Shown here: positions 5,090 to 33,532 of the stretch, one piece after another
Layout: every line of letters begins with the position of its first letter
Numbering within the stretch: position 1 is the first letter of the stretch
Assembly (NCBI GenBank): GCA_010093605.1
Contig: MU004202.1
Coordinates: 73,560-137,559, forward strand
Length of the DNA: 64,000 nucleotides
Origin: Lophium mytilinum
Taxonomy: Eukaryota
Direction: 5' to 3'
Made by a program: the position numbers and the translations under genes
Notes under the pieces: model-generated
What the model saw: only the letters and a program-made list of their open reading frames with translations
Told to the model about the DNA's origin: nothing
The model's database searches: none

Positions 5090-5586
5090 AACGACGTCTC
5101 AGGTCCACTAGGACGAAAGACTCGCAAGATATAGATGTGAGAGTGGAGAAGATATGAGTAGAATCCAAGACGCGGGGAGAGAAGACTCCAAGCATGTGTG
5201 ACCTTTCCACCTGCACCGGTTTCTCGTGAGTACGGAACACAACCAACGAATCAGTAGTACACGACCATCTCACGACGGGAAGCTGCATTTGCCATCACAC
5301 AAGCTGATAAGCTAACCGGTTTTCTATCAATTTGAGTGCAGCAACGCGAAGGAATCATGATCAGCCAATGGAAATCTTTATCTTGATGCACTAAGTTCCC
5401 TAAAGCTGTTGGAGCCGAGTGCAATAGCTTTGAGACCGCCTGGGGGGGGCTCAGTGTCGTCAAGTGTTTGCCAAAGAGCCCCCAAACTTTTCACAATTGA
5501 AGTTCGACGACCAAAGACGGGCTGATTCAGCTACAAAAATGTATATCCAAGCATAGTTCACGTTATATGCCAGAAGTGCGTGAATA

Positions 5587-7175: not shown

Positions 7176-8025
7176 TTTGCTTCGGTGACGCTGGATGTTA
7201 AGTTTCAGGAGCAAGTGATGGGAGAAAGTGGGAGGGTTCGCTCAAGATGCCGTGTGCTCCCACGTAAAGAACCTAAATTAAGAGCGCACTGTTCGTATCA
7301 CCGTTTGTTTAACGATATACAGTTGTATGGGCTCATTTCAATTAGTGTGGGTAGCTGCACCTATGTGGAAACCCAGTGCTACTAAGGATTCCCCGGTTAG
7401 CCAATATTTGCACGCGTATCAGGCACGAGAACGCATGAACGGTCGCAGTGCAACCCGACTTGGGATCACGAACTTCTGGACCATTCCTCAGTAGCACTCA
7501 TACTAAACCATGGGATATTTGTCCTGTTGTGACGCACCTCCTGCATCCCTGATGAGGCTCGAACAATGATAACCCACGGTCAGTCGTTTGTGCACTCCTG
7601 CACGCCGCCGTCCGAGGTCCCTCAATGCGTTATTAGAAATCTAGATGAGATGTGAAAGTCCAGAGTGTACAAATTGAAACGGTATCAAAGCTTCTGATCG
7701 ACTGCGGTTCGGAGTGCTTCAACACCTAATTAGAAAGTAGCAAAAGGAGTCAGAACGTGGGGCAAGAGCAGGTGAAAGACACGGTTCAGCTAACGAGGAC
7801 AAGCCTCACTGCCGCATATTCGATTCTACTTACATATCCCACCGCGCCGAAACGCAGTCCGACCCGCCAAGATATGCTCCCAGTCAAGAAAGCCCGTCTT
7901 CGCGCCATAAACCGATTCGCCGCAGTCGCCGCAAACTCCCCGATAGAACCCGCTGAAAGGATTGCCAGATCAGTATACCCTGCGCACAAATACAGTTGAA
8001 TTGCTCCTGCAACTTCATCCCCACC

Positions 8026-14359: not shown

Positions 14360-14579
14360 CCACCGCCCAAGGGACTAGGTCTGTCGACTGCTTAAGGTAG
14401 CCTGATAGGCTATTGAATATCTAATTACGATGTAAAGGCCAGAGCAGTGGAAATTAGACTACCTTCTGACGAGGGTGTCGCCTACTGCCTGGGGGACCCC
14501 TCACAGTGGTGTTAGTCGGGCAAGAGTAGCGCGAGAGCAGTGAGATATCCATGTGCCCAAACTTATGGCCTGGAAGCTG
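14360..14579 (-). mobile_element. MITE copy A (~220 bp, one end eroded), subfamily A/C/F
   Basis: Reverse complement (ggccataagtttgggcacatggatatctcactgctctcgcgctactcttgcccgactaacaccactgtgaggggt...) aligns along most of its length with copy C at 19393-19617. Confidence 0.8.
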
Positions 14580-15191
14580 GCTTGCATCGCTCGTTCCGCG
14601 CGCTGACCATCTGTTCTAAAGGCATGGACAGAAGTTCTTCGTAACGTTCGGGTGTTTTGCACAGCTCGTCTCCAAGCGGGATAGATGGAAAGCTAAGCCC
14701 CATACAGAAGGTCCATCCGACGACCACCATCATTCCGTCTGACCTCCATCGACGACTTCCCCTCCTTTCTATGACCAACCAGTTCATATCGACCAGATTG
14801 CGAGTTGCCGAGCTTGCCATGAAGCCAGTTGCCGTTATTGGACTTTTCCAAACCTTGCAAGACCTGCTCTCGAGGGTAGAAGGTCCATGCGAAATCACTC
14901 AACGCGCCTTGACGCTCTCCTTGCTTCCGCCTTCATTCTATGCAGCCCTTTCGCTTTAGCCACTCCATAACAGTCTTATCATGATAGCAAGTCACAGTGC
15001 CACAGTGGGGGCCTTTCTGTAGGCTGCCGAGTCTGTCTTGCTCACGCCCTAACATGGACTAATATTCATCGGACACACATTAGCGCAAAAGCAATTAGCT
15101 GATCGATTCATATAATAAATCCGAACGCCCCCAAATTGAACTTTCATCTCTGAATATAGTTCTCCATAACCCAGGAAACCGACATCCAACC

Positions 15192-17271
15192 ATGGCGCCA
15201 CATCCCTTCAGCACGTTGTCGATAGAGGAGACTCGTAGCGCACGAGATGTCATCCTTGCCTCCCACACTGGTGCTGTCGTTGACTTCCGCGAAATATTCC
15301 TCCAAGAACCAGCAAAAGAAGAAGTCAAGAAGTACTTGAACCTGGAGCACTCAGCCCGCCTATCGCCAACCTCACCTCGCCCACCTCGCCTTGCAAAATG
15401 TCAGTACGACATCATTGGCAGCGATAGGGTGCCAGAGTACCACGAGTCCATCGTCGACGTTGAGTCTAAGAAAAGAGTGAAGCATGAAGTCATCGGGAAA
15501 GAGCATCAAGCAGGTCTGACGCTTTGGGAATTCGATACCCTGGTCAAAACCTGCAAGGCCTCGCCACTATTTCAGGAAGCCGTTGCCGAACTGAAGCTGC
15601 CGGAAGGTTTCGAGCTTGTGGTGGAACCATGGCCGTATGGTGGGATGGATCTTGAGCACGAAAACAAGCGTTACTTTCAAGGACTGTGCTTTGCCCAGGA
15701 CACCAGGTCGAAGAATGCGGATTCGAATTTCTACGCCTATCCTCTGCCACTAATCCCAATCATGGATGCTCACAAGAAAGAAATCGTTCGAATCGACAAA
15801 CTTGCCACAGGCGGGAAGGGTGATGGCCTTTCAGAGAAAACGCACGCGGAGAGAATCATTGACCATTGCCAGACATCAGATTACGTACCGGAGCTTCTGG
15901 AAAATGGAACTCGAAAAGATCTCAAAGTTCTAAACGTGCTTCAACCAGATGGGCCATCTTTCAAAGTCACGAATGAGAATTTGATAGAATGGCAGAAATG
16001 GAGATTCAGGGTTTCTTTCAATCCGCGCGAGGGAGCCGTCATCCACGATGTCCACTACGACGGGAGGAGTATTCTCTACCGGCTAAGCATCAGTGAGATG
16101 ACCGTTCCATACGCCGACCCTCGACCTCCGTTCCACCGGAAGCAAGCATTCGACTTCGGAGACGGCGGAGCAGGAAACTGCGCGAACAACCTTTCACTTG
16201 GCTGTGATTGTCTCGGTGTCATCAAGTATTTTGATGGCGTAGTGATCAGCTCCGATGGAGAACCAGAGAACCATCCAAACGTCATTTGTCTCCACGAGCA
16301 GGACAACGGGATTGGATGGAAACATACTAACTGGAGAACCGGACGTGCAGTCGTGACTCGTAATCGCGAGCTCGTCGTCCAGTTCATCATTACTCTGGCC
16401 AACTACGAATACGTCTTTGCGTACAAGTTTGACCAAGCTGGAGGCATCACAATCGAAACTCGAGCCACCGGCATTGTTAGCGTTGTCAACATCGACCCGG
16501 GAAAGACCAGCAACTACGGAAACGTCGTCTCTGGAGGTGTACTTGCTCAGAACCACCAACACATCTTCTGTGCGCGCATTGATCCCGCTATCGATGGCCA
16601 CAACAATACGGTCTTGCACGAAGAATCGCACACCATGCCATGGGATCAAGCCACAAACCCGCACGGAAACCTCTATGAAGTACGCAAGACGACCGTCCAT
16701 CGTTCTGCTGGACTTGACGCCGCCCCACAACACAACCGCACCTTCAAAATTATCAATCCGAACAAAACAAACCCTGTCAGCGGAAATCCTGTCGGCTACA
16801 AGTTCGTCCCACCACCAACGCAAAAGCTTCTCGCATCCCCGGGTTCCATCCAGGCCCAAAGAGCGCTCTTCACGCAACACCACGTCTGGGTAACCAAGTA
16901 CAAAGACAATGAGCTCTACGCTGGAGGGCGGTTCACGCTGCAGAGCCAGCTCGAGGTCGATGGAGTGTCAGACGCGGCGAAGAGGAACGATCCGGTGACG
17001 AATGGGGATGTGGTTATCTGGAGTGTGTTTGGGCTTACGCATAATCCGAGAGTTGAGGACTGGCCTGTGATGTGAGTTCTTCTATATGAAAATGTCTACA
17101 ACGCCAATGCTAATCTTCATGTGCTTCAGGCCCGCCGATATCTTCCAGGTAAATCTCCGGCCATCAGACTTCTTTACGGCGAATCCGTCTATCGATGTGC
17201 CCTCCACCAAGAATCTGTCATCCCAGCTCGTGACGAATGATTCCTGCTGTGCGGAGCCAGGGAAGCTGTGA
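15192..17271 (+). CDS. Copper-containing (TPQ) amine oxidase; one intron near the 3' end (17072-17129)
   Basis: TLANYEY (TPQ precursor), NHQH and THNPRVEDWPVM Cu ligands, AFDFGD active-site Asp; last exon ends ...CCAEPGKL*. Confidence 0.95.
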
Positions 17272-17342
17272 GCTTGGGATGGGCGAGCCCAAGTGCAAGA
17301 AATCTCAGTAGACATGTGTAACTTCTCATTTCTAGGGTTCTA

Positions 17343-17568
17343 CAGTGATGGGCCACAAGTCTGGGCACACTAGCTCGATCCTGCTTGGGGTTTCCCACAG
17401 GATTTCGAAGATCCAAGGGTGATATCGAGGTTCAAAGAGTGTAAATTGGACTACCTCTTGGCTAATTAGCGGCTCAGCAGCCAGGCTACCCCGAACAGTC
17501 TTGGGGAATAAGCAAGTTGGAGCCAAGGTGTAATGAATCTATGTGCCCAGACTTATAGCTTGGTACTG
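17343..17568 (-). mobile_element. MITE copy B (226 bp), subfamily B/D/E
   Basis: TA|cagtgatgggccacaagtctgggcacac ... atgtgcccagacttatagcttggtactg|AA. ~28-bp imperfect TIRs; reverse complement aligns with copies D and E (cttggctccaacttgct, ctgttcggggtagcct). Confidence 0.88.
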
Positions 17569-17766
17569 AACACTTATTGTCTGTATATATATGTTTTATA
17601 GCATTACCTTTTGTGCTCCGACCAATTTGGAACGAGCTTACCTAAGCGGCTCATTATTATTAGGCTTCCATGCTTCCAGCTTTCATCTCACCACCTCTAC
17701 CACAAATCCCTACTCTACAAGTTAGCGCGCTTTACTCTTTTACACACAGAACTTTTGAGCAACCCG

Positions 17767-19260
17767 ATGGCCCGCAGTGGCGATGCCTTAAACTCAATAG
17801 ATGGTTCATCAGCGCTGGTCATGGCAACGCCGGTGTTTGAGCTCCCGAACGAGCTTATGCTTGAGATCTTCGATGAGGTCCGTAGAACATCAACTACGCC
17901 AAACAGCGACCTCTTGTCTTGTATGCGCTGCTGCCACGATTGGAACGACCTTATCATCAATATTCTCTATGAGCACGTTTCCTTGCTCTATAGGCTTAAG
18001 GCCGTCTCAGCGGTTCCTCTCTTCCTCAAATCCAGCAAATACGACCAAACTACTTCTCTCAATCTGACCATACATCCCACTTTGCTCAGCGGGTTCCGCA
18101 TTGAACACAAAAATGCTTTTAAGTCCTTGGATGGCCTCCTCAACGTCCTTCCTGGTATGAAGCGGCTCGAGACATTTTCCCTTACGATGGACTCCGAGCT
18201 AGACAGAACCCAGTTTCAACATATTCCAGGTTCCGTAATTTCAAAGCTTGTCTTAGCCCTCCCAGCCTCGGTCGTCAATCTGGAACTCGATTCTAGAGGC
18301 GCTGAGGCGAACCGTCATGGAAGCGGCTCCGCCCAGACCACGAGCCATGACATCTGCGACGCTGTAGCTCAGCTTTTTCCTCGCCTACATACGCTTGCCC
18401 TCGGCCTGGATCATATTTGCGAGATGATCTTGGGCGCATTCAACGACGCGATTGGCGGCACAGAAACGTCTGGGAAGCCTATAAAGACATCCAATCAAAC
18501 CACTATATTTCCTCTCCGCCATGCCCTCCTTTACCCATACCGCAACTATCCTTCCGGCACTCCCCCTCCCAGATCGTACTGCCCCGCCGATGTCTTGGCT
18601 AAAAAAGCCTCTTCTTTCTGTCATCTACACCAGTTTCCCCATCTCCAGTCCTTCATCGTTATTCAGCGTCAGCTGGCAGAGTATACGCCCCATCCCGACC
18701 GTGACCTATTCTGGCACATGTGGATTATTCGAAACCTCATAAGCAACACCACCTCTCTAATTCCGTACAACGAAGTCAACGTGACTGGGTGCAATCCGCT
18801 TTTCACGGTGCGAGATACTAGTGGTAATGATCACCTACTCAGTCGTTCTGATCTACACACCGCGATGGCAGGAGGACAGTGCCCTTGGACGACGGGCCAC
18901 AGTGGCGTGAGAGTGCCGCCTGAGTTTGGAAATACTGCTCAGCGAGCGAAAATTGGGGTCGAAGCCCGAGTTCCTCACGGAGCCATTAGGAGAATCTCTG
19001 ACCTAGACCTTGGCAACGGGAAGAAGATCAGGCTGCGAGCTGCCCTGGATAGGGAAACCGCGGAAGCTGAAGTTGGTGCCTCGATGGGAACGTGGGAGTG
19101 GGAGGCTACTACAAGATGTCCACTTCTGAAGGCCCATTGTACGCCCGGACTTATGGATAAGGTTCGATGCCTCGCTGTCACACTGCCACCAGGATGGGAG
19201 TGGCAATGGGACCAGCATGCAGATGATGGACCAAAGCGAAAGCCAGTATTCACGGGCTAA
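17767..19260 (+). CDS. F-box protein with degenerate LRR-like region (paralog 1); alternative start at 17821
   Basis: FELPNELMLEIFDEV...DLLSCMRCCHDWNDLIINILYEHV F-box motif; intronless; colinear with 21509-22882. Confidence 0.8.
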   Translation: MARSGDALNSIDGSSALVMATPVFELPNELMLEIFDEVRRTSTTPNSDLLSCMRCCHDWNDLIINILYEHVSLLYRLKAVSAVPLFLKSSKYDQTTSLNLTIHPTLLSGFRIEHKNAFKSLDGLLNVLPGMKRLETFSLTMDSELDRTQFQHIPGSVISKLVLALPASVVNLELDSRGAEANRHGSGSAQTTSHDICDAVAQLFPRLHTLALGLDHICEMILGAFNDAIGGTETSGKPIKTSNQTTIFPLRHALLYPYRNYPSGTPPPRSYCPADVLAKKASSFCHLHQFPHLQSFIVIQRQLAEYTPHPDRDLFWHMWIIRNLISNTTSLIPYNEVNVTGCNPLFTVRDTSGNDHLLSRSDLHTAMAGGQCPWTTGHSGVRVPPEFGNTAQRAKIGVEARVPHGAIRRISDLDLGNGKKIRLRAALDRETAEAEVGASMGTWEWEATTRCPLLKAHCTPGLMDKVRCLAVTLPPGWEWQWDQHADDGPKRKPVFTG

Positions 19261-19392
19261 TGAGGCCAGATAACGCTTATGGAGGTATTCTGCGAGTTCG
19301 TACACTGTCTAAGACCACAAGTGTACATTGTTTCTAGATTCTTAAGAGTGTGTTGAGGTTTCTTCCGATTTTACCCACCTCATGTCTTGGTA

Positions 19393-19617
19393 CAGTACCA
19401 AGCCATAACTTTGGGCACGTGGATATCTCACAGCTCTGGCTTTACTCTTGCCCGACTGACACCACTGTGAGGGGTGCCCTAGGTAGCACGTGACACTTTT
19501 GCTAGAAGGTTATCTGGTTTCCACTGCCTTGGCCTTTACATCATATTAAGGATTTAACAACCTATCAGACTACCCCAGGCAGTCGCAAGAGGTGCCCAAA
19601 CCTATGTCTTGCTACTA
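19393..19617 (+). mobile_element. MITE copy C (225 bp), subfamily A/C/F
   Basis: TA|cagtaccaagccataactttgggcacgt ... ggtgcccaaacctatgtcttgctacta|TA; TIRs and TA target duplication. Confidence 0.88.
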
Positions 19618-19877
19618 TAGTATCTAATTCTCATTACTTTGAGCTTTATATCACGTTCAAAGCCTATCGGCTACTACAAGCAGTGGCAAAGAGCTCTAAT
19701 ACTTATGTCTTAGTGGTGTATATCTGCTACAAGGTCATGTGGAAGAGTTGCTCTTTGGACATGTTTTCGCATGCTCTCTTCCCTCTGAGCCCTCTTCTTC
19801 CTCTGTAAGCTCGCCCACCACGGCGGCCTACGGCCCTTCGGACGAGTAAGAAATTCTTCAATCTTTGTGAAACCATA

Positions 19878-20558
19878 CTAGTCGTTCTCACGCTGTGCAA
19901 GCTTGCAATCCTCGTTCGTCCAATCCTGAGTACCTGCTTTAATCCCGAGCTTGTCCCCTTCGAATGCGCATGAATCAAAGTCCCCGACAACAAAGGTTGA
20001 TTCGTCCAAGAAGATATTGTGCGGTTTGATATCGCAATGGATGATGCCTAAGCTGTGAAGATGCTCGATGCCGGCTTTGATATCACTCAAACACTTGGGT
20101 AGATCGAGTGCTTCGTCAGCTTCGACCAGCTCATCCAAGGTTTGGCTGTACTTTTTGAAGCATAGGCCAACGATCGAACCGCTCTCGTCGATGTGACAGC
20201 CGAAATATCTGGCGACGTTGGGATGCGGTGACCTCCTTGTTCTCTCGCACATTTGCGCTTCATGCATGATGAGATTGCTGACATCCGTTAAGCCTGGGCA
20301 ATCGCCGTATTCGAATATGTTCGGGCTTTTAATGTAGACATCGACGGAAAGTGAGTTGGGAGCCTGAGTAGGAAGCATGGGGTAGATGTGCTCCAGAGGA
20401 ATTGGAGTTGTCTCAAGGTTTGAAGTATCGATCTCTTCTTTTCTTTCAATTCGCGGTTCGACCGTGGCAACGAAAAATTGTCTATTGCGCTGCAAGAGAA
20501 CCTTGGCATGGGAGTAATCGAAGCCATCGTCCTTCATATTCCACATTCCGCTAAACAT
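19878..20558 (-). CDS. Small atypical Ser/Thr kinase-like protein, probably truncated or pseudogenising
   Basis: VYIKSP, HEAQMCE, HPNVARYFGC, HLHSLGIIHCDIKPHNIF and GDFDSC motifs, no Gly-rich loop. Protein-like sequence continues past the TAG (END*YGFTKIEEFL). Confidence 0.75.
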   Translation of the reverse strand: MFSGMWNMKDDGFDYSHAKVLLQRNRQFFVATVEPRIERKEEIDTSNLETTPIPLEHIYPMLPTQAPNSLSVDVYIKSPNIFEYGDCPGLTDVSNLIMHEAQMCERTRRSPHPNVARYFGCHIDESGSIVGLCFKKYSQTLDELVEADEALDLPKCLSDIKAGIEHLHSLGIIHCDIKPHNIFLDESTFVVGDFDSCAFEGDKLGIKAGTQDWTNEDCKLAQREND

Positions 20559-21022
20559 CACAACCTCAAGATCCTTCTACGATCAGTGCTCTGTCTATTG
20601 AGATAACATCAAGGGTCGCTACCTTTTCGTCAGAATCGACTCCATCTTTACTGAATCTTTATTCACATGGTCCAAGCTATCATCGGTTGGCTTCTGGTTT
20701 GCGATAGGCTGAGCCTGAGTAACTCCGTCTTTCGCCGATTCTTTGTTCGTAGCCGCCGAAGATGTCTCGGTCGTCCTCTGCTTTTTCGGAGACTGCTCGT
20801 CAGATAGCCCATCCAACTGTAATTGTCTCTTGGGTGCGCTTCTCTCGGGGGTAGTCAAATCGCTCATTATTGCTTCGAACGCAGCGTTATTCCCTAAATG
20901 ATGAGCGATGTTAAGTTTGACTGTTAGAAGTTCCCTAATTCCACAGAGTCTTTCAATCTCCAAAGGCGGCCATGACAAAGGATGTCGAGCGCTAGAGCTT
21001 CTTCCGGCCAGCTTAGGTCGTA

Positions 21023-21250
21023 CAGTACTAGTCCATAAGTCTGGGCACACGAACTGTCACTGTTTGGCTGCAATGTTGCTCACTTGACACCACTGTAGGG
21101 GGTAACCTGATTGCTGAGCAGCTGACTAGTCAAGAAGCAGTCTGATATTCATTGCTTGGAACTTGACATCGCCCTCTCGAATCATTGAGATCTTGTCGGG
21201 GTACACAAGCAGTGGTGAACCAGGGTGCCCAGACTTATGGCTTGTCACTG
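21023..21250 (+). mobile_element. MITE copy D (228 bp), subfamily B/D/E
   Basis: TA|cagtactagtccataagtctgggcacac ... ggtgcccagacttatggcttgtcactg|TA; intact TIRs and TA duplication. Confidence 0.92.
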
Positions 21251-21508
21251 TACGCTGGGTCACCGTCCACATTTCATTGTAGCCACACAGACTAGTGCCT
21301 CGGCACCCTTAGCATACCTACTTTGATGACACTATAATCCAAATCCAACCTATGATTCAAGTGGATTTATGGACTTGAATATTAGTCATGTGCTGGATTC
21401 GTACCGTACCTAACGGGCATAGACTCGATTCTTAGCGTCTAGCTGTAGGCGCTACCACCCAACCCCTCAACTTTTGACATCGCCTTCCATCCACCCAGGT
21501 GCGGCGCT

Positions 21509-22882
21509 ATGGCGAGCCCACTAGCACAGCTCCCGAACGAGCTTTTGCTAGACATCTTCGAAAAGCTTTTAAGTGTCCGCCGCGACCTGGTCTCGTGTTT
21601 GCGCTGCTGCCGTCGTTGGCACAACATCGTCGTAGACATCCTATACACACATGTCTATCTAGCTTATCGCCGACGAGGGACCTCATCCCTTCCACGCTTT
21701 GTAACCCAAGCCACCAGAATGCAGCAGGTTGTGTCACTCACCCTCGACGTCTGTCCCACTCTATTTAGCAAAGAGCGCACATCCCCCTTCAAGGGAGACA
21801 AACTCTTCAGCTTTCTTCCCCAGATGACAGTTCTGCGGACCTTCTCCCTTACGATTTCTGTTTCAAAATTCTCCAAAAAGCTGTACTACGTACATACGCC
21901 TAGTGCAATACTCTCTAAGATCGTTCTGGCCCTCCCGGATACCGTCGTGAACTTAGAGCTTCGTTCCTACACATGGGATGGGCGCAAAGACTACCGCGAC
22001 AGTGTCGATCAAAGAGTTGATGATCATAGTCTTTGCATTGCCTTGAGAGTACTGCTGCCACGCCTACGTACGCTCCGTTTGTGTGTATCCCACATCTGCG
22101 CCAAATTCCTGGCCGCACCCGGCAGCGGTGCGAACATATCATACCCGCTACGCCAAGTCACTCTCCATCCCGAGGAAAAGATGTGGTCGGAAAAGTGGGA
22201 TGACGACAACATCCGTCAAATGGCATACTTCTACCAATCGAAGGTTTTCCCGCATCTACAGTCTTTCAATATAATCACCCATAAGTCCCCATGGTCCTCG
22301 GAGATTACTTGGAACACATGGGTCATCCGTGACATTGTGTCTCATACCACATCACTCGTCCCGTACAAATGCCCAGTCAAGACCAAAGACGAGGACTTGG
22401 AACTGTGGGTCCTGCGTGATACTTCTGGTAAAGATCATATGTTCCGTAATCGGTATCGGGCGCACGACGCAGTGGAAGAGGGGCTTTCGACATGGGTTTC
22501 AGGCCACTACTTTGTGAGATTACCTCGTGGCGAAAAGACAGACGAAGAGCGACGGAAGCTGGGACTAAAAGACGCAATTGAGAAGACCAGCAGCGTTGAG
22601 TTTGGGAGACATATTATCCAGCTGCCACAAAGCGGTTCGCTGGATAGGCAGACTGCGGTGGACAAATATGGAGCTCATATGCATCTTTGGAAATGGGAAT
22701 CTGCAACAAACTGCACCCTCATGAGAGCACATTGTCATAACGGGTTCCTGCTTGGGACAGATTTGGTCGCATTGGAAGTCACTTTACCCCCAGGCTGGGG
22801 GTGGTCTCACGACATTGATGTAGAAATCGAGGACCAATACGATTTTGACAATGCTCTCATCCCAGTCTATAAGGGCATATAA
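21509..22882 (+). CDS. F-box protein (paralog 2)
   Basis: AQLPNELLLDIFEKL...DLVSCLRCCRRWHNIVVDILYTHV. Shares VLALPxxVVNLEL, FPHLQSF, TTSLxPY, RDTSGxDH, LDRxTA and VTLPPGW blocks with paralog 1. Confidence 0.82.
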   Translation: MASPLAQLPNELLLDIFEKLLSVRRDLVSCLRCCRRWHNIVVDILYTHVYLAYRRRGTSSLPRFVTQATRMQQVVSLTLDVCPTLFSKERTSPFKGDKLFSFLPQMTVLRTFSLTISVSKFSKKLYYVHTPSAILSKIVLALPDTVVNLELRSYTWDGRKDYRDSVDQRVDDHSLCIALRVLLPRLRTLRLCVSHICAKFLAAPGSGANISYPLRQVTLHPEEKMWSEKWDDDNIRQMAYFYQSKVFPHLQSFNIITHKSPWSSEITWNTWVIRDIVSHTTSLVPYKCPVKTKDEDLELWVLRDTSGKDHMFRNRYRAHDAVEEGLSTWVSGHYFVRLPRGEKTDEERRKLGLKDAIEKTSSVEFGRHIIQLPQSGSLDRQTAVDKYGAHMHLWKWESATNCTLMRAHCHNGFLLGTDLVALEVTLPPGWGWSHDIDVEIEDQYDFDNALIPVYKGI

Positions 22883-23144
22883 GGGGCATACAAGCTCGGA
22901 TGTATCATGAAGTGCAAACTGGGTAGTCTACTTATGAGTTGTCTCTTGTCTCTTTCCAAGCTGTCGCAAAGGTAAGTAACCAGTCTATCCTCGACAAAAA
23001 CAGACTCATCTCTCATCCAGAAGTTCTAAATGGTCTATGAACAAGACAGTGGGAAAGGATTATGCATAGGAGAAGTTTAGCCAAAACGCAGTATGTGAAA
23101 CATTTGTAGGAAAAGCAAACATCGTCAAAGACTATCCCTCGCAC

Positions 23145-24235
23145 CTATATTCCCTTGCCTGCTCCAGTAATACGCTCGAACTCCCCCTCCGTGTGCTTCC
23201 AGACCTCCTCCACCAACCCTTTCTCCCTCATCCCAGCCAACAGCTCAACCACCGGTGGGCCTGAGCTCTCACAGTCCCACCCCACCGAGTACACTCCGCT
23301 TCCCACCTCCCCCGTACTACCTACTGCCACCTCAGCCCCCTCTTCTATTCCAGCCTCTCCTTTGGCGCCTCTGGCTGGCGGATACCTCGCACTTGTCGCC
23401 ATATACAACTGCCTCTCCCCGCTCTCTTCAATAGGCACACAGACCCACCTCCCAAGCAACGTCACATAAGTCCGAATGAGGAACCCAGACACGCCAACCA
23501 TATGATTCAGTAGCGGCGTCTTTACAGTGCCCGGATAATCATGCACGAAGGTTACCTCGGGCGCCATCTTAGCAATGGCCTCGAGGCCTAAGGTGGCGAG
23601 CGAAATGATGTGCCCTCGGATTTGCAGCAGAGGAACGCGTAAGGCCTGAAAGTCGGTAGCGTCGACAGGCCCCTCTCTGCCTCCGCCAGCAACGTAAACA
23701 ACGCGACGGAGAGGAGAGGGCGAGTACCTGAAGAGCGGTAGGAGATTGACGATGAAGCGGAGTCGAGAATAATATTGTACTGCAACCAAAAGATGAAGAT
23801 TCTCGGACGTCACTACACCACGCGGCAGTCAGAAGTCCTTAGTTCTATCTCAGCATCTTTCATGTCGAGAGGACACTTACAACTTCGATCCATTGACGGC
23901 ACCCCCGCGCTTAGCACCATTACATTGATCATCTTCTCCTTCGCTTTGATGTCCTTACACACCACATCGACATTACGCATTAAGCTCACATCTGCTTTGA
24001 TGAAGATGAACTCGCCGACTGGGTTGATGGATCTGCACTCGGCAAGGATGCGGTCGGCGGCGGTTTGAGAGCGGCCGACGAAGTAGGCGCGTGGTTTTAC
24101 GGCGTGTTTTGCGAAGGCTAGGAGGGTGGCTTCGCCAATACCGCTGGTAGCGCCGACGAAGAGAGCGATGAGCTTGGGAGGGAGAGTAGAGGGGATGAGA
24201 GAGTTGGAGCGTAGGACTGCAGGGAGGGAGACCAT
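23145..24235 (-). CDS. Short-chain dehydrogenase/reductase (intron 23880-23813)
   Basis: ALFVGATSGIGE Rossmann motif, FIKADVSLM, VLSAG, YYSRLRF, FVHDYPGTVKT and ESGERQLY; typical fungal atypical SDR. Confidence 0.9.
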
Positions 24236-24608
24236 TTTGAGCGGAAAGGGAAAGGTATGGAAGGCGTCTTTTCAGATGAACGATGGGATGATGGAAAGGC
24301 TTTATGGGAGAGGAGATGTTTTACAACCGGAGTATTATGGAAGTCATTTTTTCTACCCGTACTTACGACTGATTATAAGGTCGAGTGATGCAAAGGGAAC
24401 TGTGAGTTTAGGAGATATATCTCGGTTGCAAGGTGACTTAAACTCTCTATTGAAATACGCCGAACGTGCATGATGCCGCCGCACCTGCATATCCTATTCT
24501 AAAACAGCTCTAGCTCAGCGCTATGCTCTTACCAACCACTACTCTCTTTTTCGTTCCCGGTCTTTACAGCTTGTTTGTTTCAATCTTTGATCTCGACGTC
24601 TTCTGATC

Positions 24609-26109
24609 ATGGATTTCCACGTAAATTCTGCAGATCCAGCTTCAGCATCATCCCGAGCCTACTCTAATCCCACCAGCCGGTCCGCGAAAAGCCGCTCAGC
24701 CTGCAACCGGTGCCATTCACAAAAGCTTCGGTGTGTTCGGAGACCAGGATATGACATCTGTGAGCGGTGCTCTAGACTGAAAATAGCATGCCGATACGGT
24801 CCTCGTGCGCCAAGATCGTCTTTGAGACCTCTAGAACAGATCACAGACTGGCAGTCTCTTACCGTACCTCCATTGACCCCAACGCCGAACGCAGATCCAG
24901 ATACTCTATTCGGTGATATGCTTAACAACGACTGGCTTTCTAGCTTTACGCTAGAGACAAGCACTGCCGAAGGGCTAGGTTAGTTGTGTCACGCATTCAA
25001 AGTTCAATAATAGTAACATTGACCTGGTGTTTGTAGCGGCTATGTATCCGGATCGTTGCTATCCCCAAGAAGGCAATTGTGCAAGTATTATGGAAATGAG
25101 CTGGCCGGGCAACTATGGCGATATGAGGCCTCTGGACCCAATGGTCGATCCAAATCTCACGACTGTCAGCGAAGACTCCATGATCTACGCGGGCAATCGT
25201 CCCTCGCCTGGCATATCGATATCGGATTCTAGGATCGAGTATCAAGACACTGAAGACCACTCAAAAGCCTCTCGTAGATCCGCCGTCCACAAGCTAGCAA
25301 CCCTCAATGTCGCGCTCTACGAATGTGCTGCGCAGCTCCCATCCTCGAGCACAGGAGACCCCGTCGCCACCGGCGAAGACCCACCCAGATCACGTAAACC
25401 AACCGTGTTCGCTTTCGACGAATTATTCCGGCTCACGACGGACTTCATCGACATCGTGAAGGACCTCTCTGCAGAAGAGCCCACGACACATCTTACAGCA
25501 TCCGCTGCCAACCCTGCTCTATCCTCGTCAAATCCAACGCAATCTTCCACTCAGCCATCACTCCCACTCGTCACCTACACCCGCCCACTCTCCCCCTTCT
25601 CCCACACATCCCTCAACCCCAACACATCCCCTACTATAGCTTCATTACCCACCACCCTCCTTGCCCACATCGACGAACCCACCCTCCTCCTCCTCAGCTC
25701 ATCTCTCACCCGCCTAACCACCATCTACGCCTCCATCTTCGAAAAAATACACCTCTGTCTCAAGCACTCCGCCGTACCAGTCATAGGCCGCGACTGGGCG
25801 ATCGTCCTACCTCGTCTTTCCGTGGGTTCGATCGCGTCCCCGCCGGTGCGGGTCGATAACGCTACGCCACTTGTGTCGAAGACAGAGAGTTCGTTGTATA
25901 TGCTTGTTTTTACCATGTTGGCGGGGCAGTTGTGGGGGCAGGTGGGGGAGGGGATGGGCTTAGGTGAAGGGAGGAGGGATGGGGATAGGGAGACTAGGGA
26001 GGGGAGTGGATTGTTGGATGTGTTGTGGGATTCTGTGAGGGAGAAAGTGGATGGGATGGTGAGGATGGTTGAGGAGACCAAGGGGTTGTTGCAGAGGTAC
26101 TCGGCATAG
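24609..26109 (+). CDS. Zn(II)2Cys6 transcription factor (intron 24979-25036)
   Basis: ACNRCHSQKLRC...ICERCSRLKIAC binuclear cluster; in-frame splice to the 25027-26109 ORF; divergent from the SDR across 373 bp. Confidence 0.9.
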
Positions 26110-26692
26110 TTTGAGATATTACAGGGACAATGTTCTGGGACATGAAAGCATGCTACACACGTGACTGCTGTCTTCGCTGCGTATATAAGCTTTTCTACGG
26201 TCCCGTCGTTTCTGTTCTTCATCAGAGATCAAGCTGTGCGAGAAGGGTGGAAAATCAAAAAGTATTCTTCATAATGGCGATGGTGTCGAAATTGGAGGAA
26301 GCGATATGGTGGCAGCCACCATTCGATGTCGTGGCTAGATGCTCGGGAATGATGACAATCTACATCTTCAAGACAATCATATGATGTTCAACGACAGTGT
26401 CTCGAAAGGAATATCATGTTGAGAGAGTTGTGGTTCGGAACATCAGTGGTGGTTCAGGATAATTCGTGAGATCAAATGGCGAAACCAAAATCCACCACCA
26501 TAGCACTTCCGTCCCAACATTTGGATCCCCCAACGCCGTTTCCAGAACCGCGACATAGAAGAAGTGAAGCAATGAATTTTGCTCAAACCGTGACTGCAAC
26601 GCCCTGTGCACTGGAGCAGAAGTTGTTGAGGGGAGGGAACAAAGTACTTATATGCTGCCGTCACGTGTACAATTACGCTTCCCGCTAGACTA

Positions 26693-26923
26693 CAGTACTG
26701 GGCTATAAGCCTGGGCATATGAACTCAATTTTGCTTGGCTCCAACTTGCTCACTCAACACCACTGTTCGGGGTAGCCTCGTTGCTTAACAGCCAGATGAT
26801 CATGAGATTGTCTAACCTGTAGGTAGTAATTGAGCCTCGACATCGCCGCTCGATCTTAGCAATCTTGTGAGGGTACTCCAAGCAGTAGTGAACCAGTGTG
26901 CCCAGACTTATGGCCTGTCGCTG
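26693..26923 (+). mobile_element. MITE copy E (231 bp), subfamily B/D/E
   Basis: TA|cagtactgggctataagcctgggcatat ... gtgtgcccagacttatggcctgtcgctg|TA. Confidence 0.9.
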
Positions 26924-27017
26924 TAAGCTAGCCGCAAGCGATGAAAAAAGATATAAGAGGAACGAAATGAAGTGCGATGCGCATTTTGATACTATACATA
27001 TATTACACCATCCTAAA

Positions 27018-29574
27018 TCATGGCACGAATCCCTTCTCACCGCCCATCTTCTTTCCGCCCTCGTGCGCCTCCACGGCGCGCTCGAATAGCTCTCGACACC
27101 TCACCTGTGCACCTAATCGTGCGCACATCAAGAAAGCGCCACTCAGCTTCCGATGAAGACTGTACGTCTCCTCCGGCGGCGGGCTTAGCCGCTCCCGCAC
27201 CATCACCGGGATGAAGCTTCGTACGCGATCCGTGATGGTCTGGTCCCTGAAGTCGTATACCTCCGGACCGGTTTCCATGAACGGCTCCGCGAGGGTAAGC
27301 ACAGACTGTGTGTGCGCTTCGAGCATGGCGGGTGACTCGCCGCCAGTGAGATACCCGAGGGTGAGAGAGAGATCGTGAATGAGAGGTTTATCCTCGCGGG
27401 CAGCGGCTTGCAGGATGCGGACGTATGGATCTATGAATTCGTCTGGGAAATCTCGGGATGCACCAAAATCTAGCAACTCAATTTTGTGAGTCTTCTCGTT
27501 ATAGAGGAAATTCGTCCAATTAGGGTCCGTCTGCATGAAATGGAATTCGCAGATCTCGCGTAGACAGAGTCGCAGGATATGGGTGCCGATAAAGTCACGC
27601 TGGTCCTGTGAAAGAGTCGTGATTTTGGTGACCCCGACGCCGGACATGTACTCGGCGGTGAGAACAGCTGGGCCGGAGGCAGAGGTGACTACAGCAGGGA
27701 CGGAAAACACCTCAGCATCGTCCGCTAGGAGGTCGTGGAAGCGAGTTTGGCACTCAGCTTCGCGGGCGTAGTCGCATTCCCAACCGAGCTCGGTACGGGC
27801 GTTAGCGATAGTCTTGTCGAGGTAGAGGCCCTTCGGGAGGAGGCGAGAGGCGGTGAGGAGGATAGAGAGATTAGAGAGATCTGAGGAAATGGAGGAGGCG
27901 ACTCCGGGGTACTGGACTTTGACTGCCACTGTCTGGTCTGTGGAGCGGAGAACAGCTTTGTGAACCTGGCCAATAGAGGCGGCGGCTATAGGGACTTCAT
28001 CGAACGAAGAAAACAGGTCGCGCCAATTTGGTCCTAGATTATCAACAAGGACTTTGTCACGTTGAGAGGCGGGCATGTAGTCTGCACTGTCTTGGACCCG
28101 CTGGAGGACTTCGTGGATTGGTGGTGGGAGCATTTTTATGTCTACTTGGTGTTAGAAGAACAACCTGATATTCTATGATCGGAACTTCATTACCCTGGAA
28201 GCTGATCATTTGCCCAAGCTTCAAAGCAGCACCACGCATGCGAGAGAGCTTTGCAACCAGAATCTCCATGTTACCCGGGCTCAGCATCAGCGAGCCTCCT
28301 GTTGCTGCAGCAGTACCAGTCACACGCCTGAGACTCTCTCCCACAGCACCAAAGGCCATACTAGTTGCTAGGCCACCATACTGCCAGAGACGACCAAATC
28401 TTGACGACGGCACTCGAGACTGGCGTAGCTCGTATGGCGCTTTTTCATCTAAGGTTACCTCAGACATGGGTGTGGAAGCAACTTCGGCGTTTTTGGCAAG
28501 TTCAGAGGCAAAATCATGCATTTCCTTCTCCGCAATTGCTTGGGTACTACCTAAGGCCTGTTCTGGCTCCGTAGGCTTCGTTTCTTGTGATGTACGGACA
28601 TTGAAGGTGGCTTGATCTATTCCAGAGGCAAGTTTCGTATGATCAATTGGGGCTTTACGAGCGCCTTTCAGATCCAGACTTCGCCTGTCCTTGTAGGGGT
28701 TCCCACCCAACATCTTTGCCACCCTTGTAGTGCGGAACACATCTGTATTGATTCCTTCCGGCACCTGGTCTTGCTCCGGAACAGCTGCCTGTTGTGGTAT
28801 GTGATCCTTTTGTGCCTCCTGTTGAGCCCGCTGTGGCGTAGCATAAAACACGTCCTGGTTCAAATTCCCATCTTGAACGTGCTCGTCGGTTGCTTGTGTA
28901 TCTTCTGTATGCTTTGGTATCTTAGATCTCGGCAATGAGGAGTATTCCGGCTTCGTCTCCACAGATCTGTCGTAGAAAACATCACGATCATGTCCCTCGG
29001 ACAGCTTTTCTGTTGCAGATCCTGATGAAGGTTGAACTTCACCTGCCCTCGCAGGTATTTGAGACTCAAACTCCCGCTGAAGCCTGCGAGCCTCTCCAGA
29101 AGTCAATCCTGGGGTCTTGGATGGTATGGGTATAGTTCCATCCGGCAAAGGTGGCTGCTGTGCCTCTTCTTGCTTTACTTCGAGCTCGTCCTCCGCCGGC
29201 GGTTCCGCCTGTGTACTTTGACCAGATCGATAATGTTGATGGCCCTGCTCAGACTCCCTCTTTACGTCCTTACGTACCCATTCGCCATTTACCATCTCCT
29301 TCCGCGCGATGTTTCCATCCTGGGCTGGCGGATTCTCGTCCGATGTGGTAGACTTGGTGTACGAAGGCGGAGGTTCATTGAAGCGTTGGGACAGTGCTAT
29401 CGCAGCTTTCGCGGTAAGGGTTATCCGATCGGTCTGGTTTTTGACGGCTTTCGCGAGTGTGGAAGTCTTGTTGAATGCATCTAGCTGCTGCGAGCGGAGG
29501 TTTACGTGCTGCTTAGCTACAGATTTGGAGGCATTGTATAGCTTCGCGGCGTCGATTAGTCGCCGGCCTGCCAT
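27018..29574 (-). CDS. COQ8: Mitochondrial ABC1/UbiB atypical kinase Coq8 (intron 28193-28142)
   Basis: [15 protein letters not shown] (KxGQ), [35 protein letters not shown] and [15 protein letters not shown]. Confidence 0.96.
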
Positions 29575-29999
29575 TGAGCTGATGCCAATTGCTATGATAG
29601 TCGGGACATGTTTCTAGAAGATTAGCGCTCGAAGAGGACGGACGATACCATCGATTGTTGAAGCTTGAAGAACGAAAGCGTCATCGCCAACCGAAGCTTA
29701 GGCGCGAGAATGTACCCCACGTGATTCGGCTTTATGGGCCCAACTTCAAGCGCGTCCATCGCAGCTTCATCAACAGTAGAAAATAGAGAGCGCCTGCTGA
29801 TGTGTTCGATCCACTAATTTCCACTGCGAACACATCCAGTAAGATCACTTCAAGATGTACTCGCCATAAGCTTCTGTCAATCGCTCCATAGAACACTGTT
29901 GAAACAAGCAATCTTTAAAGTCTCTGTAGTCATTGTCACCCTCTTTTCGTCTTCATTTCCTCCTTGAATTTCGAATTTCTCAGATCTGGTTCTGTCATC

Positions 30000-31209
30000 A
30001 TGAAGATAGCATGTCTCCAATTCTCGGCCGAAATGGGCCAGGTGGAGACAAATATGCGGCGAGCAGACGAGATTCTTTCGCATACAAATCTGCCATCGAA
30101 CCTAGACTGGCTTATCTTGCCTGAATGCGCGTTCACAGGTAAATATGATATGATCCCTTGACTCACATTTCTATCCCGTTCTATGGACGGTGGACACGAT
30201 GTAACATCGTCCCGACGTCTCAATGTCAATATATGAGTCTAGGTTTCATTTCAGAAGGCGGCATGATCTCAGCCCGTTCTACCGAGAACCTTCAGCACCC
30301 TCCATTGTCTCATTTCCATGATTTCCACGTTCAACGTCATCGTCTAACTCATACCTAGGCTACAACTTCGCCTCGCTCGACGAAATCCGCCCCTTCCTCG
30401 AACCAACCGCCTCCGGCCCTACCGCCCAATGGGCCATCCACACCGCACGCCGTCTCCACTGCCACGTAACAGTCGGCTACCCAGAGCGCTCTTCCGAGCC
30501 GTTCTCCAGCCCCTCCCCCAGCCCAGCGCCCATGCTCCCAACCACCACGACCCCCTCCCCCGGCCCCCAGGAATTCAAGAACTACAACGCCACCCTCACC
30601 GTCTCCAACAATGGCGTGGTACTCCTCAACTACCGCAAAACCTTCCTCTACTACACCGACGAGACCTGGTCCCTCCCCGGCTCCGCCTTCTACTCCGGCC
30701 CCCTCGGCGGCCTAGGCAGCGTCACGCACGGCATCTGCATGGACATCAACCCGCACAAGTTCATTGCGCCGTTCGAAGCCTACGAGTTTTCGAACCAAGC
30801 GCTCGCGGCGCGCTCGCCGCTGATATGCGTGAGTATGGCGTGGATCTCGGCGCTGGCGCCGGATGAGCTGGCTGCGGAGGAGACGGCGAAGGAGCCGGAC
30901 CTCGCGACGCTGAGTTACTGGGTGCAGCGGTTTGTGCCGGTGGTGGATTGGTGCAGGGGTTCGGGTGCGGCGGTGACGATTGTGCTGGCGAATCGGTGTG
31001 GGAGGGAGAGGGAGACGGGGTATGCGGGGAGTAGTTGTGTGTTGAGGGTGGATGGGGAGGGGGTGAAGATGTATGAGGCGTTGGGAAGAGCGGAGGAGAA
31101 GTGCTTGGTTGTGGATACGAATATGGTGAGTGGATTATCGTTGAATTCGGATTGGAGAGTGCTAATGGGAATGCAGCGACCGAAGTTCCAGCTAGCGACT
31201 AATAACTAG
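30000..31209 (+). CDS. NTA1: Protein N-terminal Asn/Gln amidohydrolase (nitrilase superfamily); introns 30139-30358 and probably 31126-31176
   Basis: MKIACLQF, LILPECAFTG/YNF, YRKTFLYYTDETW and GICMDINP (Glu-Lys-Cys triad), SMAW, ANRCGRE...YAGSS. Confidence 0.92.
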
Positions 31210-31668
31210 ACATTTCCTGATTGTGCGAGGCGGGTCTCCAAGGACGCCTCAGCTATCTATATGCGCGTGTTCCTAATGGCGGAGAGGAGAGGTTATGCCA
31301 CAATGCTTCAATGAGATACGGGAGCATCATCGAGTAGGCGCCTGTAATATGGCATCCGAGCCAACATGTCACATATCAAATATCCAACTACAGTATACGG
31401 ACAAGCAAGTGTATGACATTCATTGCCTAGCATCCGGTATCATGTCTCTGTCCGCATCCCAAGCGCCTCCGTTTCGAATGACCGAAGTGAAAATGCCATC
31501 ATCGCCACATCCCCTCGTCCCCTCATCCACATTTTCTGCTCCCCGCATCCTTCAGAAATTGACTGAATCGTTTGCCCGCTTGTCGTAAAACTTGCTCATT
31601 CCCCTGCCATTGACGAGAAGGTTGGTTGAGGGATCGATGTAGAGGAACAGGTTGGAGGGGCGAGTCGT

Positions 31669-32099
31669 CTATATGCCGATGCGGGTCTTGCGCCAATGTC
31701 GTCGCTTGGCGTTGTATCTATAGAGAGGAATCTCGTTAGCTAGCTGTCCTTGTGCCTCGCGTTCCATTACTCCATGTGCGCACGCCCGGGGTGAGGTCTT
31801 GGTGTCATCCAGCCCCTCAATCCTCCGCTCGCAAGTCCTCGTGTGTGGGTAGATGCTTGGAATCGCCGTACCTGATGGTGTTGCCCGTCCGCAGGCGGAT
31901 CCACTGGGGAATGGGCCTGTTCTGCTTCTGCGCCTTCGCAAGCTTCTGCTTGGTTCGGAATGACTTGTGGCTCTGTAGGTTGGCTATTAGCAATCATATT
32001 CCGCATATCCATCCACTCCTCTAGCCGACAATTTCAATCCGGTGCAGTCGACGAGAGGAAAGGACAGCTCCTGGGAATCGGGTTCAAGCATACCGGCAT
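31669..32099 (-). CDS. RPL39: 60S ribosomal protein L39 (2 introns; 6-nt first coding exon)
   Basis: [51 protein letters not shown]. Confidence 0.98.
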
Positions 32100-32531
32100 C
32101 GTGAATGTCCGTGTCGAGATGGGGTTGTTGTCGATGAAGTGGAGTGAGGCCGCGGGCAAGAATTTCGGTTGTCTGTGGGCGCGCCAAGACTTACTGACAA
32201 GCTAGACCCAATTTGGCACGCTAGTGTCGACGTCAGCTCTTGCGGAGGAGGATACCTTCCAATGTTTCCACCAGTCAGCCATTTTATCCCTGAGGCTCCG
32301 GTGATGTTTCCAAGGATAGGAAACCATGTGAAAATTTATTGTCACATCATCACGAGTTGCGCTACGAGCAGGCAGGTCCTATTCCATTTGCTATCAGTCT
32401 TCTAGGTATGTTCGTCAATCGGTTTGCTAGTCTCTATACAAGATAGACATGAATGGAAGTTTTGCTCGAATACTCATTCTTTCGAACGAAAGTTCCGTGG
32501 AACAACGCGCTCGTGTGCAAAATAAGACGAT

Positions 32532-33235
32532 ATGCAGGATTCTCGGAAGATGTTTCAAGTCCGTATGAAAGACGACGAAAGTGATTTCTTCGAAGACTTC
32601 AGTTTCGAGAAGCCGTCATTCATGGGATGCATCCGTCCATTCAGTCGTCCCGGTTATCGAGATCGGGATTCGATTACCATAACGGCCTCGCAAAGCACAT
32701 CTCATCGATTTCTAAATTGGCTTCGTGGCGACGACATCTATCAGAATCATCAGGATGAAGCATATGAAGCTGAGCTACTTAAGCTCTATGAGCCGGGCCA
32801 AAAACACAACATTCTCCGTCTACAACGCGACGTCATGAACTGCTTTCTCCAACGGTTTCAAGATGGTATCATCCCAAGCGAGGATGCTCTTGTATTCACT
32901 TCCAAATCAGTGTGCCCCCGGGAAGAACTATCCCGTTTCATGATCCATATGGAAGTGTAATTCATGCTACATGGGCTCGTTGAAAACCGGTACGAACTTG
33001 AGAAGAACTTCGCTCACGATATCTACTGGCTCCACCAGATGAGATCAAGAAAAAATATATGCAGGGTCATAGAGTGATCGTTGTGGAGGGCTGCTACAGC
33101 AAGAGAGCTCCTACTTGTGTCTTGGCATGATTGGCATGAGTGCGATACTCAACCTGAGAAAGATGAAGAGCGTTGTAAGCAGGAAACGACGGCGCAAAGG
33201 GAGGCTTGGAGGGTGGGCATATTTTGGGGGTAGAG
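32532..33235 (+). pseudogene. Decayed tandem paralog of the BTB-like gene at 33814
   Basis: LLKLYE...LRLQRDVMNCFLQRFQDGIIPSEDALV...RFMIHMEV*FM vs LLKLYD...KLRRDAMNCFLQRFEDDLIPGEDSLV...RFMIHMVLYFM. Homology resumes after the stop (RCKQETTAQREAWR vs TCKKETMAQRETWK). Confidence 0.82.
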
Positions 33236-33306
33236 TTAGACTGTGTACCCATTTCTTACGTTCCACCAGCCAAGACAAAGATAAAGAGCATGATGATACT
33301 TTGATA

Positions 33307-33532
33307 CAATCCTCGCTCGTGATTCCAAGCATGCGGATGTACGACTGCTCCAGCTCTACTCTTGCTTTCTCGGCGTCACTATGAGGAGTGCCCTGCATAT
33401 CAGATTTTCAGTTAGTAAAAGGGTAGTCAAACTTGCACTGCATTGACTTGTGCATCGTATCAGGAGTTTCTGAAGCCCGTCGGAGTACCCCAAGCAGTAC
33501 TAAGGAGCCCCCAAACTTATGCCTCAATACTG
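33307..33532 (+). mobile_element. MITE copy F (226 bp, most diverged), subfamily A/C/F
   Basis: Interior ggatgtacgactgctccagctctactcttg...gtcactatgaggagtgccct matches copy C; right end ccccaagcagt...cccaaacttatgcctcaatactg; TA at the left end; same length as the other copies. Confidence 0.7.

What the first reader, a model, noticed from the sequence alone, without database searches (positions are those of the whole stretch)
14360..33532. Six diverged copies of a ~225-231 bp MITE family within 19 kb, in two subfamilies
Seen: copies at 14360-14579, 17343-17568, 19393-19617, 21023-21250, 26693-26923 and 33307-33532 share ~28-bp TIRs (CAGTAC-N4-CATAAGTCTGGGCAC), TA flanks (both sides in C, D and E) and almost constant length, despite visibly diverged interiors. 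Interiors split into A/C/F and B/D/E types; A and B are inverted. Established: TA duplication with CAGT ends is Tc1/mariner-like, and repeats this short tend to escape RIP. Inference: an old family, possibly undescribed, concentrated in the accessory part of the window. I saw no copies in 34-64 kb.
Basis: partly seen in the sequence, partly recalled or inferred. Interest (0 to 1): 0.75.

Follow-up and report, generated by a model that had tools for sequence, protein, structure and literature searches.

The report
Old miniature transposon family in fungus
Six decayed copies of a small non-coding jumping-DNA element lie between genes of a fungus; they belong to an old family with hundreds of copies across the genome, an ordinary kind of repeat even though this particular family seems to be uncatalogued.

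Summary
Confirmed, and ordinary. The six ~227-bp copies are real, their interiors are homologous in all 15 pairs, and they fall into two lineages (A/C/F, B/D/E). They belong to a genome-wide family: 659 TIR matches against 4 control in 43.4 Mb, roughly 650 loci by extrapolation. TA flanks both sides of 34 of 55 full-length copies, and a nested insertion shows the TA duplication directly. The ~27-bp TIRs share 16-19 of their first 20-21 bases with TIRs of DD34E Tc1 transposons, both RIP-killed ones in this genome and metagenome elements. They match 13 of 16 positions of the published mimp motif. No cognate autonomous partner was found. The copies show no RIP signature, although RIP is active here. 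The window is locally dense (about 10 times the genome mean), but clustering is general to the family. On this contig's gene-rich part, the six-copy cluster has P = 0.07. 'Accessory' targeting is untested. Faint relics lie in 34-64 kb too. One side feature: variants with internal 117-173-bp tandem duplications. Earlier scan notes describe abundant TA-flanked MITEs in other pieces of this genome, possibly this family (not checked).

The parts
14360..14579 (-). Copy A (A/C/F lineage). Left TIR at the 14579 end; right TIR decayed. Lies between an aldehyde dehydrogenase-like gene and a copper amine oxidase gene
   Evidence: neighbours (the ALDH label is my reading of the ORFs)
17343..17568 (-). 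Copy B (B/D/E lineage), full length, TA on one side; ends 198 bp before the ATG (17767) of an F-box-like gene
19393..19617 (+). Copy C (A/C/F lineage), TA on both sides; starts 132 bp after the stop of the first F-box-like gene
19623..19713 (+).
   Evidence: (z 15.4)
21023..21250 (+). Copy D (B/D/E lineage), full length, TA on both sides; ends 258 bp before the ATG (21509) of a second F-box-like gene
26693..26923 (+). Copy E (B/D/E lineage), TA on both sides; 94 bp beyond the stop of an ABC1/COQ8-type kinase gene on the minus strand
33307..33532 (+). Copy F (A/C/F lineage), most decayed; TA on the left, TG on the right
7586..7675 (-). Decayed fragment of the same family (model positions 123-212)
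   Evidence: z 6.6; 1 of 300 shuffles reach the score
59200..60210 (.). Single-copy intergenic stretch with 162-bp and 234-bp tandem units that weakly match the family model (7-13 bits; the 234-bp units z 4.0 and 4.8). Possibly very old relatives; uncertain

Best explanation
A non-autonomous, non-coding MITE family of the Tc1 type. Each ~227-bp unit carries ~27-bp TIRs beginning CAGT. A DD34E Tc1 transposase encoded elsewhere bound these TIRs, cut the unit out and inserted it at TA dinucleotides, duplicating the TA (shown: TA flanks and one nested insertion; inferred: the enzyme class, from the shared TIR). The family amplified in successive waves (an older A/C/F wave, a larger B/D/E wave with sub-lineages) to several hundred copies. 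Units shorter than ~400 bp escaped RIP, while the 1.3-1.4-kb transposase-bearing Tc1 elements of the genome were RIP-inactivated (shown: mutation spectra; the length threshold is from the literature). The copies have since decayed as intergenic passengers in the GC-balanced, gene-rich compartment. Local clusters like this one come from insertion near or into earlier copies and from tolerant intergenic space (inferred).
For: TA on the left in 41, on the right in 44, on both sides in 34 of 55 full-length copies; background TA frequency 0.08. Nested case L116: old copy 1-123, new full copy, old copy 122-189, TA duplicated. 659 TIR-pattern hits against 4 reversed-pattern controls; 99 exact 14-mers against 0. 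In-genome 1,360-bp and 1,338-bp TA-flanked Tc1 elements (L145-L149, L155) share 16 of the first 20 left-TIR bases, and 94-bp MITEs (L156, L159) share 18 of 20. The L147 protein hits HTH_Tnp_Tc3_2, DDE_3 and Sleeping Beauty 5cr4, with 34-residue spacing. Metagenome Tc1 elements L179 and L180 share 19 of the first 21 TIR bases; L180 has an open 313-aa frame with D-34-E. C>T per site in 44 copies: CpA 0.107, CpC 0.074, CpG 0.149, CpT 0.090; T>C overall 0.072. Tc1 copy L149 has GC 0.26 and 36 stops. All six consensus frames contain stops; the longest stop-free stretch is about 50 codons. No Rfam match in 14-34 kb. No consensus RNA structure.
Against: No transposase-bearing element with this family's full TIR (ending GGGCAC) was found among 14 DDE_3, 7 HTH_Tnp_Tc3_2 and 16 protein matches (the loci were not examined one by one). 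TIR positions ~22-27 differ from every Tc1 element seen. The interior is not similar to five Tc1 elements tested (z -1.2 to 1.5). No empty site was seen in other runs. 21 of 55 full-length copies lack TA on at least one side.
Confidence: 0.93

Rival explanations
1. Same MITE, but enriched for a biological reason near lineage-specific genes, as mimps are near Fusarium effector genes, so that the cluster marks an accessory or fast-evolving region.
For: Window density is 156 TIR hits per Mb against 15 genome-wide and 33 on the rest of C22. B and D lie 198 and 258 bp upstream of two F-box-like paralogues; a kinase-like gene also lies among the copies, and 4 of the 10 window ORFs scanned (9 of them from 15-35 kb) have no Pfam hit. 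Clustering across the genome exceeds uniform: 12 of 70 neighbour gaps are under 15 kb against about 2.9 expected.
Against: Six loci in 18.9 kb: P = 0.03 on all of C22, P = 0.07 in its gene-rich part. Similar clusters lie elsewhere on C22 (4 loci in 10.7 kb at 389-400 kb; 9 in 41 kb at 546-588 kb). Tiles with and without copies do not differ in GC or long-ORF cover (P 0.17 and 0.67, 18 vs 44 tiles, AT-rich tiles included). E sits by a COQ8-type gene. The NACHT-ankyrin-like gene at 43.6-49.5 kb (my reading) has no copy.
Confidence: 0.2
2. The units are a conserved cis-regulatory or structured-RNA element that has been kept (domesticated), which would explain constant length and conserved interior motifs.
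For: Lengths cluster at 225-228 bp in 45 of 55 copies (the set was selected for full-length model coverage). Positions 181-190 are as conserved (0.89) as the TIRs. Contigs of a probable RNA run reach into C, E and F (strand unknown).
Against: Divergence is transition-rich and spread along the unit. RNAalifold finds only one 3-bp helix. No Rfam hit. Orientation relative to genes is mixed. A sub-terminal inverted motif near the TIRs is what a transposase-bound end would keep (inference).
Confidence: 0.05
3. The six copies arose by local segmental or tandem duplication rather than by separate insertions.
For: Two F-box-like paralogues each have a copy upstream.
Against: B and D are in opposite orientations and only 70% identical. 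Window copies are 52-72% identical to one another and sit in different tree branches, each with relatives on other contigs. The flanks share nothing beyond TA.
Confidence: 0.02

Closest known systems
mimp (miniature impala) MITEs of Fusarium oxysporum (PMC3599309, PMC5579170; passages read)
   Same: Uniform small size (mimp 180-220 bp; here ~227), ~27-bp TIRs starting CAGT, TA target, non-coding centre, several diverged subfamilies, no intact partner transposase found in the host. Both consensus TIRs fit 13 of the 16 positions of the published mimp motif.
   Different: Fails the mimp motif at 3 positions (0 window hits). The TIR-related transposases here are DD34E, whereas impala is given as DD37E (PMC7325037 passage). 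The host is not shown to be a Fusarium. Copies are spread over many contigs rather than confined to accessory chromosomes; no effector link was tested.
DD34E Tc1-family transposons (Tc1, Minos, Sleeping Beauty clade; in this genome L145-L149 and L155; metagenome L179 and L180)
   Same: TA duplication; TIR of ~27-30 bp sharing 16-19 of the first 20-21 bases; left/right asymmetry at positions 5-10.
   Different: No ORF; TIR positions ~22-27 differ; interior unrelated. It is therefore not a simple deletion derivative of any element seen.
TA-flanked MITE families of Zymoseptoria (Mycosphaerella) tritici and Parastagonospora nodorum (PMC4522978, PMC8549362; passages read)
   Same: Short, TA target, prevalent in gene-rich regions, no CpA bias, RIP escape attributed to length under ~400 bp.
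   Different: Their sequences were not compared (supplements not read). The P. nodorum families are recently active; no identical pair was seen among 55 copies here.

Membership tests
MITE (non-autonomous class II) | Short (<500 bp), uniform length, TIRs at both ends | tested here: met
   55 full-length copies of 212-232 bp, median 227; TIRs
MITE (non-autonomous class II) | No coding capacity | tested here: met
   All six consensus frames contain stops; the longest stop-free stretch is about 50 codons
MITE (non-autonomous class II) | High copy number, dispersed, unrelated flanks | tested here: met
   659 TIR hits against 4 control; exact hits on 22 contigs; flanks random beyond TA
Tc1/mariner-type MITE | TA target-site duplication | tested here: met
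   Both sides in 34 of 55 copies; nested insertion L116 with the TA duplicated
Tc1/mariner-type MITE | Empty TA site in other strains or species | tested here: inconclusive
   Run X3 is identical to the window in its long pieces; X4, a relative, has no listed piece bridging a copy (tables cut)
Tc1/mariner-type MITE | TIR shared with a Tc1/mariner transposase-bearing element | tested here: met
   16 of the first 20 TIR bases with in-genome elements and 19 of 21 with L179/L180; transposase identity
Tc1/mariner-type MITE | Cognate autonomous partner with the identical TIR | tested here: not met
   None among the matches (checked); these searches score only the best candidates and miss heavily RIP-mutated relics
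Tc1/mariner-type MITE | Mobilisation by the transposase | not testable with these tools
   Needs an excision assay
mimp family | TIR matches the 16-nt mimp motif | tested here: not met
   13 of 16 positions; 0 motif hits in the window (motif from PMC5579170)
mimp family | Sequence cluster with mimp1-6 (>80% over >160 nt) | not tested
   mimp sequences were not fetched
mimp family | Partner is impala (DD37E per PMC7325037) | tested here: not met
   The TIR-related elements seen are DD34E
Catalogued Dfam/Repbase family | Match to a library consensus | not testable with these tools
   No such library on hand; TIR-motif full-text search showed no fungal TE paper among 20 of 25 listed

The most novel reading that the evidence does not exclude
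The family is a natural series showing MITEs turning into short tandem arrays. Interior duplications that keep both TIRs recur with periods of 117-173 bp, 11 of 32 adjacent same-strand pairs at 148-152 bp and 7 at 128-132 bp. Some junctions are shared by several loci, so the duplicated variants were themselves mobile, and they reach three or four units. The single-copy 162- and 234-bp arrays at 59.2-60.2 kb may be the oldest end of this series. The boldest reading is a preferred, perhaps nucleosome-sized, duplication length, with the family also gathering at promoters of fast-evolving genes as mimps do.
Probability: 0.12. Interest if true: 0.5.

Novelty: new member of a known kind. Interest (0 to 1): 0.2.

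Why it matters
Little beyond annotation. It adds an uncatalogued MITE family of several hundred copies (about 0.3% of the genome by extrapolation) that should be masked and that can serve as a neutral, RIP-free decay marker. It shows the usual RIP outcome: short passengers survive while their transposase donors are destroyed. It would matter more only if orthogroup data showed a mimp-like link to lineage-specific genes, or if the tandem-expanded variants proved to be recurrent events of a preferred length.

Tried and rejected
Search for a cognate transposase by DDE_3, HTH_Tnp_Tc3_2, DNA and protein queries: related Tc1 families only. A RIP-tolerant TIR scan of 21 transposase loci gave 9 six-mismatch hits; one is a real Tc1 end (L070), the rest are in AT-rich DNA. 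Interior derivation from Tc1 elements: no similarity above shuffles. Exact family TIR in metagenome and viral contigs: 0 and 0. Empty sites: none seen; no RNA holder was listed on record, X3 is RNA by guess only, and parts without cover are no evidence. Structured RNA: no Rfam hit, no consensus fold; interior folding z of 0.3 to -3.9 in 13 tests (12 different copies) is compatible with the sub-terminal inverted motif. A cryptic internal repeat explaining the 150-bp period: no offset near 150 stood out in the consensus (best 10 of 16 at offset 155). C nested in an older copy: the upstream 1-120 half was not detected (z -1.0). The 59.2-60.25-kb stretch as a dispersed family: single copy by DNA search. 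Seven tiles from other contigs were meant as a baseline: 8 segments in 2 tiles. They are not used as a random sample, because one tile holds a place already listed. Earlier-findings look-ups by sequence, words and nearby place were empty. A paper search for MITE tandem arrays gave 1 listing, on bivalve TRIMs, not read.
Full report
Observation. The six stretches exist at the stated coordinates, with lengths 220-231 bp, A and B inverted, and TA on both sides of C, D and E. They align end to end. A profile built from 51 copies recovers all six at 129-210 bits. A tree of 51 copies puts A, C and F in a 13-row clade (support 97/87) and B, D and E in the large clade. B, D and E are 70-72% identical to each other, C and F 58%, and cross-lineage pairs 52-60% (A was not in that set). 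Copy A has lost its right TIR. Extra pieces lie at 19623-19713 and 7586-7675. Faint matches of 11-15 bits lie at 41.5, 58.0 and 59.2-60.05 kb, against at most 8.0 bits in six controls.

Host and copy number. The window is G000:C22:73560-137559 of a 43.4-Mb, 49-contig assembly. The genes are those of a filamentous ascomycete (my reading; earlier scan notes say Dothideomycete, which I did not test). Copy D gave 299 candidates, of which 40 were scored, and copy C gave 22. The exact inner 14-mer occurs 99 times against 0 for the reversed control, and the TIR pattern 659 times against 4. On C22, 28 TIR hits correspond to 28 loci, so roughly 650 loci genome-wide is a fair extrapolation, not a count.

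Anatomy and mode of insertion. Among 55 unique full-length copies (selected for covering the model; biased to relatives of D), length is 212-232 bp, median 227. TA lies on the left in 41, on the right in 44 and on both sides in 34; flanks are random beyond it. At L116 a full copy interrupts an older one between model positions 123 and 122 with the TA duplicated. This shows the target duplication directly and stands in for the empty site I could not obtain. The TIRs differ between ends at positions 5-7. No coding capacity, Rfam match or consensus fold was found.

Which enzyme. The genome's DDE_3 and HTH_Tnp_Tc3_2 matches (14 and 7) include a 1,360-bp TA-flanked element with four full-length copies and one partial, a related 1,338-bp one, and 94-bp MITEs. 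The autonomous elements' left TIRs share 16 of the first 20 bases with this family, and the 94-bp MITEs' share 18. The least damaged protein (L147, read with X at two stops) hits HTH_Tnp_Tc3_2 and DDE_3 and Sleeping Beauty 5cr4. Its spacing is 34 residues, with the second Asp now read as Asn. A metagenome scan with the shared TIR start gave 8 loci. Three encode Tc1 transposases 39% identical to that protein (two of them nearly identical to each other), three carry ~78-bp TA-flanked units, one has a partner TIR 644 bp away and one has no partner. L179 and L180 share 19 of the first 21 TIR bases, and L180 has an open 313-aa frame with D-34-E. So the mobilising enzyme was very probably a DD34E Tc1 of this TIR clade (inference). 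No element carries the family's last six TIR bases, and the interior is unrelated to five elements tested: the cognate donor is lost, too mutated to find, or was a cross-mobilising relative.

Age and RIP. Nearest-neighbour identity has median 85% and maximum 97% in the 55 copies. The 44-copy main group is a median 15% from its consensus. C>T rates per site are 0.107 at CpA, 0.074 at CpC, 0.149 at CpG and 0.090 at CpT, with T>C at 0.072 overall, so there is no CpA bias (consensus polarisation also counts sub-lineage changes). The Tc1 copy L149 has GC 0.26, a RIP substrate index of 0.16 and 36 stops. This matches passages in PMC8549362 and PMC4522978 that RIP spares repeats under ~400 bp and that MITEs lack the CpA bias and favour gene-rich regions.

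Is the window special? Its density is 156 TIR hits per Mb against 15 genome-wide and 33 on the rest of C22. On C22 all 28 loci lie in the 478 kb of GC-balanced DNA and none in 130 kb of AT-rich blocks (P = 0.001); RIP leakage could also have erased copies there. The six-copy run is the tightest on the contig, with P = 0.03 against uniform and 0.07 within the gene-rich part. Other runs are similar: 4 loci in 10.7 kb and 9 in 41 kb. Selected stretches of C10 and C5 hold several pieces within 7 kb. Genome-wide, 12 of 70 neighbour gaps between exact-14-mer elements are under 15 kb against about 2.9 expected, and 9 of 66 without C22. Clustering is thus a family trait. Neighbours here include two F-box-like genes (B and D lie 198 and 258 bp upstream of them), a kinase-like gene, an amine oxidase, an ABC1 kinase and four ORFs without a Pfam hit, of 10 window ORFs scanned. 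That fits an 'accessory' flavour but is not a test.

Tandem variants. Of 32 adjacent same-strand segment pairs in the fetched loci, 11 have periods of 148-152 bp, 7 of 128-132 bp, and others 51-349 bp. The junction 173-to-24 recurs at L014, L054, L099 and L141, and a similar one three times in a row at L053. L056 and L057 share a junction filler. Shared junctions at unlinked loci indicate ancestral duplications that were later mobilised; whether the ~150-bp length arose more than once is open.

Comparison with known families. It works like mimp: similar size, ~27-bp CAGT TIRs, TA target, several subfamilies and dead partners (PMC3599309 and PMC5579170, passages only). It is not a mimp: 13 of 16 motif positions match, and impala is listed as DD37E (PMC7325037, passages). 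PMC4112212 (passages) reports Tc1-mariner MITEs in another Dothideomycete without detail. 'Undescribed' rests on two searches: TIR motifs in full text (20 of 25 listings seen, none on fungal transposons) and MITE/Dothideomycetes/Tc1 terms (20 of 25 listings seen). Dfam, Repbase and paper supplements, where such consensus sequences usually sit, were not seen and may hold it.

Verdict. A real, old, RIP-escaped Tc1-type MITE family with hundreds of copies; a new member of a well-known kind. The local cluster is dense but not exceptional for the family. Interest 0.2.

Noticed in passing
window 5585-6254: A second, unrelated element of ~670 bp with ~60-bp inverted ends (80% complementary) and an AT-rich, RIP-like interior. 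It matches (70-85%) the long-TIR sequences that flank Tc1 insertions on C21 (L081/L074, L070).
   Followed up: partly
window 59251-60208: Tandem units of 162 bp (2.3 copies) and 234 bp (2 copies), single-copy in the genome, with weak similarity to the MITE model.
   Followed up: partly
L156, L157, L159 (C16:883777, C2:2242233, C20:125317): A 94-bp TA-flanked MITE family whose TIRs match the in-genome 1,360-bp Tc1 element and share 18 of the first 20 bases with this family's left TIR.
   Followed up: partly
L145-L149, L155 (mostly C21): Two RIP-inactivated DD34E Tc1 families (1,360 and 1,338 bp); C21 holds 9 of the 16 protein matches; L147 has only two stops.
   Followed up: yes
L065/L080 (C2:151-152 kb) and L076 (C20): Another DDE_3 element of ~1.3 kb with perfect ~50-bp TIRs starting TACAC, GC 0.57 in L065, little RIP.
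   Followed up: no
L141 (C3:1007145-1008485), L053, L052, L046: Compound arrays of 4-8 family segments, mostly in one orientation, built from internal tandem duplications.
   Followed up: partly
C22 1-20 kb, 328-368 kb, 458-528 kb: Sharp AT-rich blocks (GC 0.24-0.30, almost no long ORFs) alternate with gene-rich blocks: an isochore-like genome.
   Followed up: partly
window 17767-19260 and 21509-22882: Two diverged F-box-like paralogues 3.7 kb apart, each with a MITE copy 200-260 bp upstream in opposite orientations.
   Followed up: partly
L176-L183 (metagenome contigs): The same TIR start occurs on 1.36-kb Tc1 elements, a 644-bp element and ~78-bp MITEs in metagenome contigs, so the TIR clade extends beyond this genome.
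   Followed up: partly
window 29786-32127: Run X3 shows spliced contigs here (GT..AG joints at 30136-30357 and 31124-31176; a CT..AC joint at 31972-32094), marking genes that the ORF list splits.
   Followed up: no
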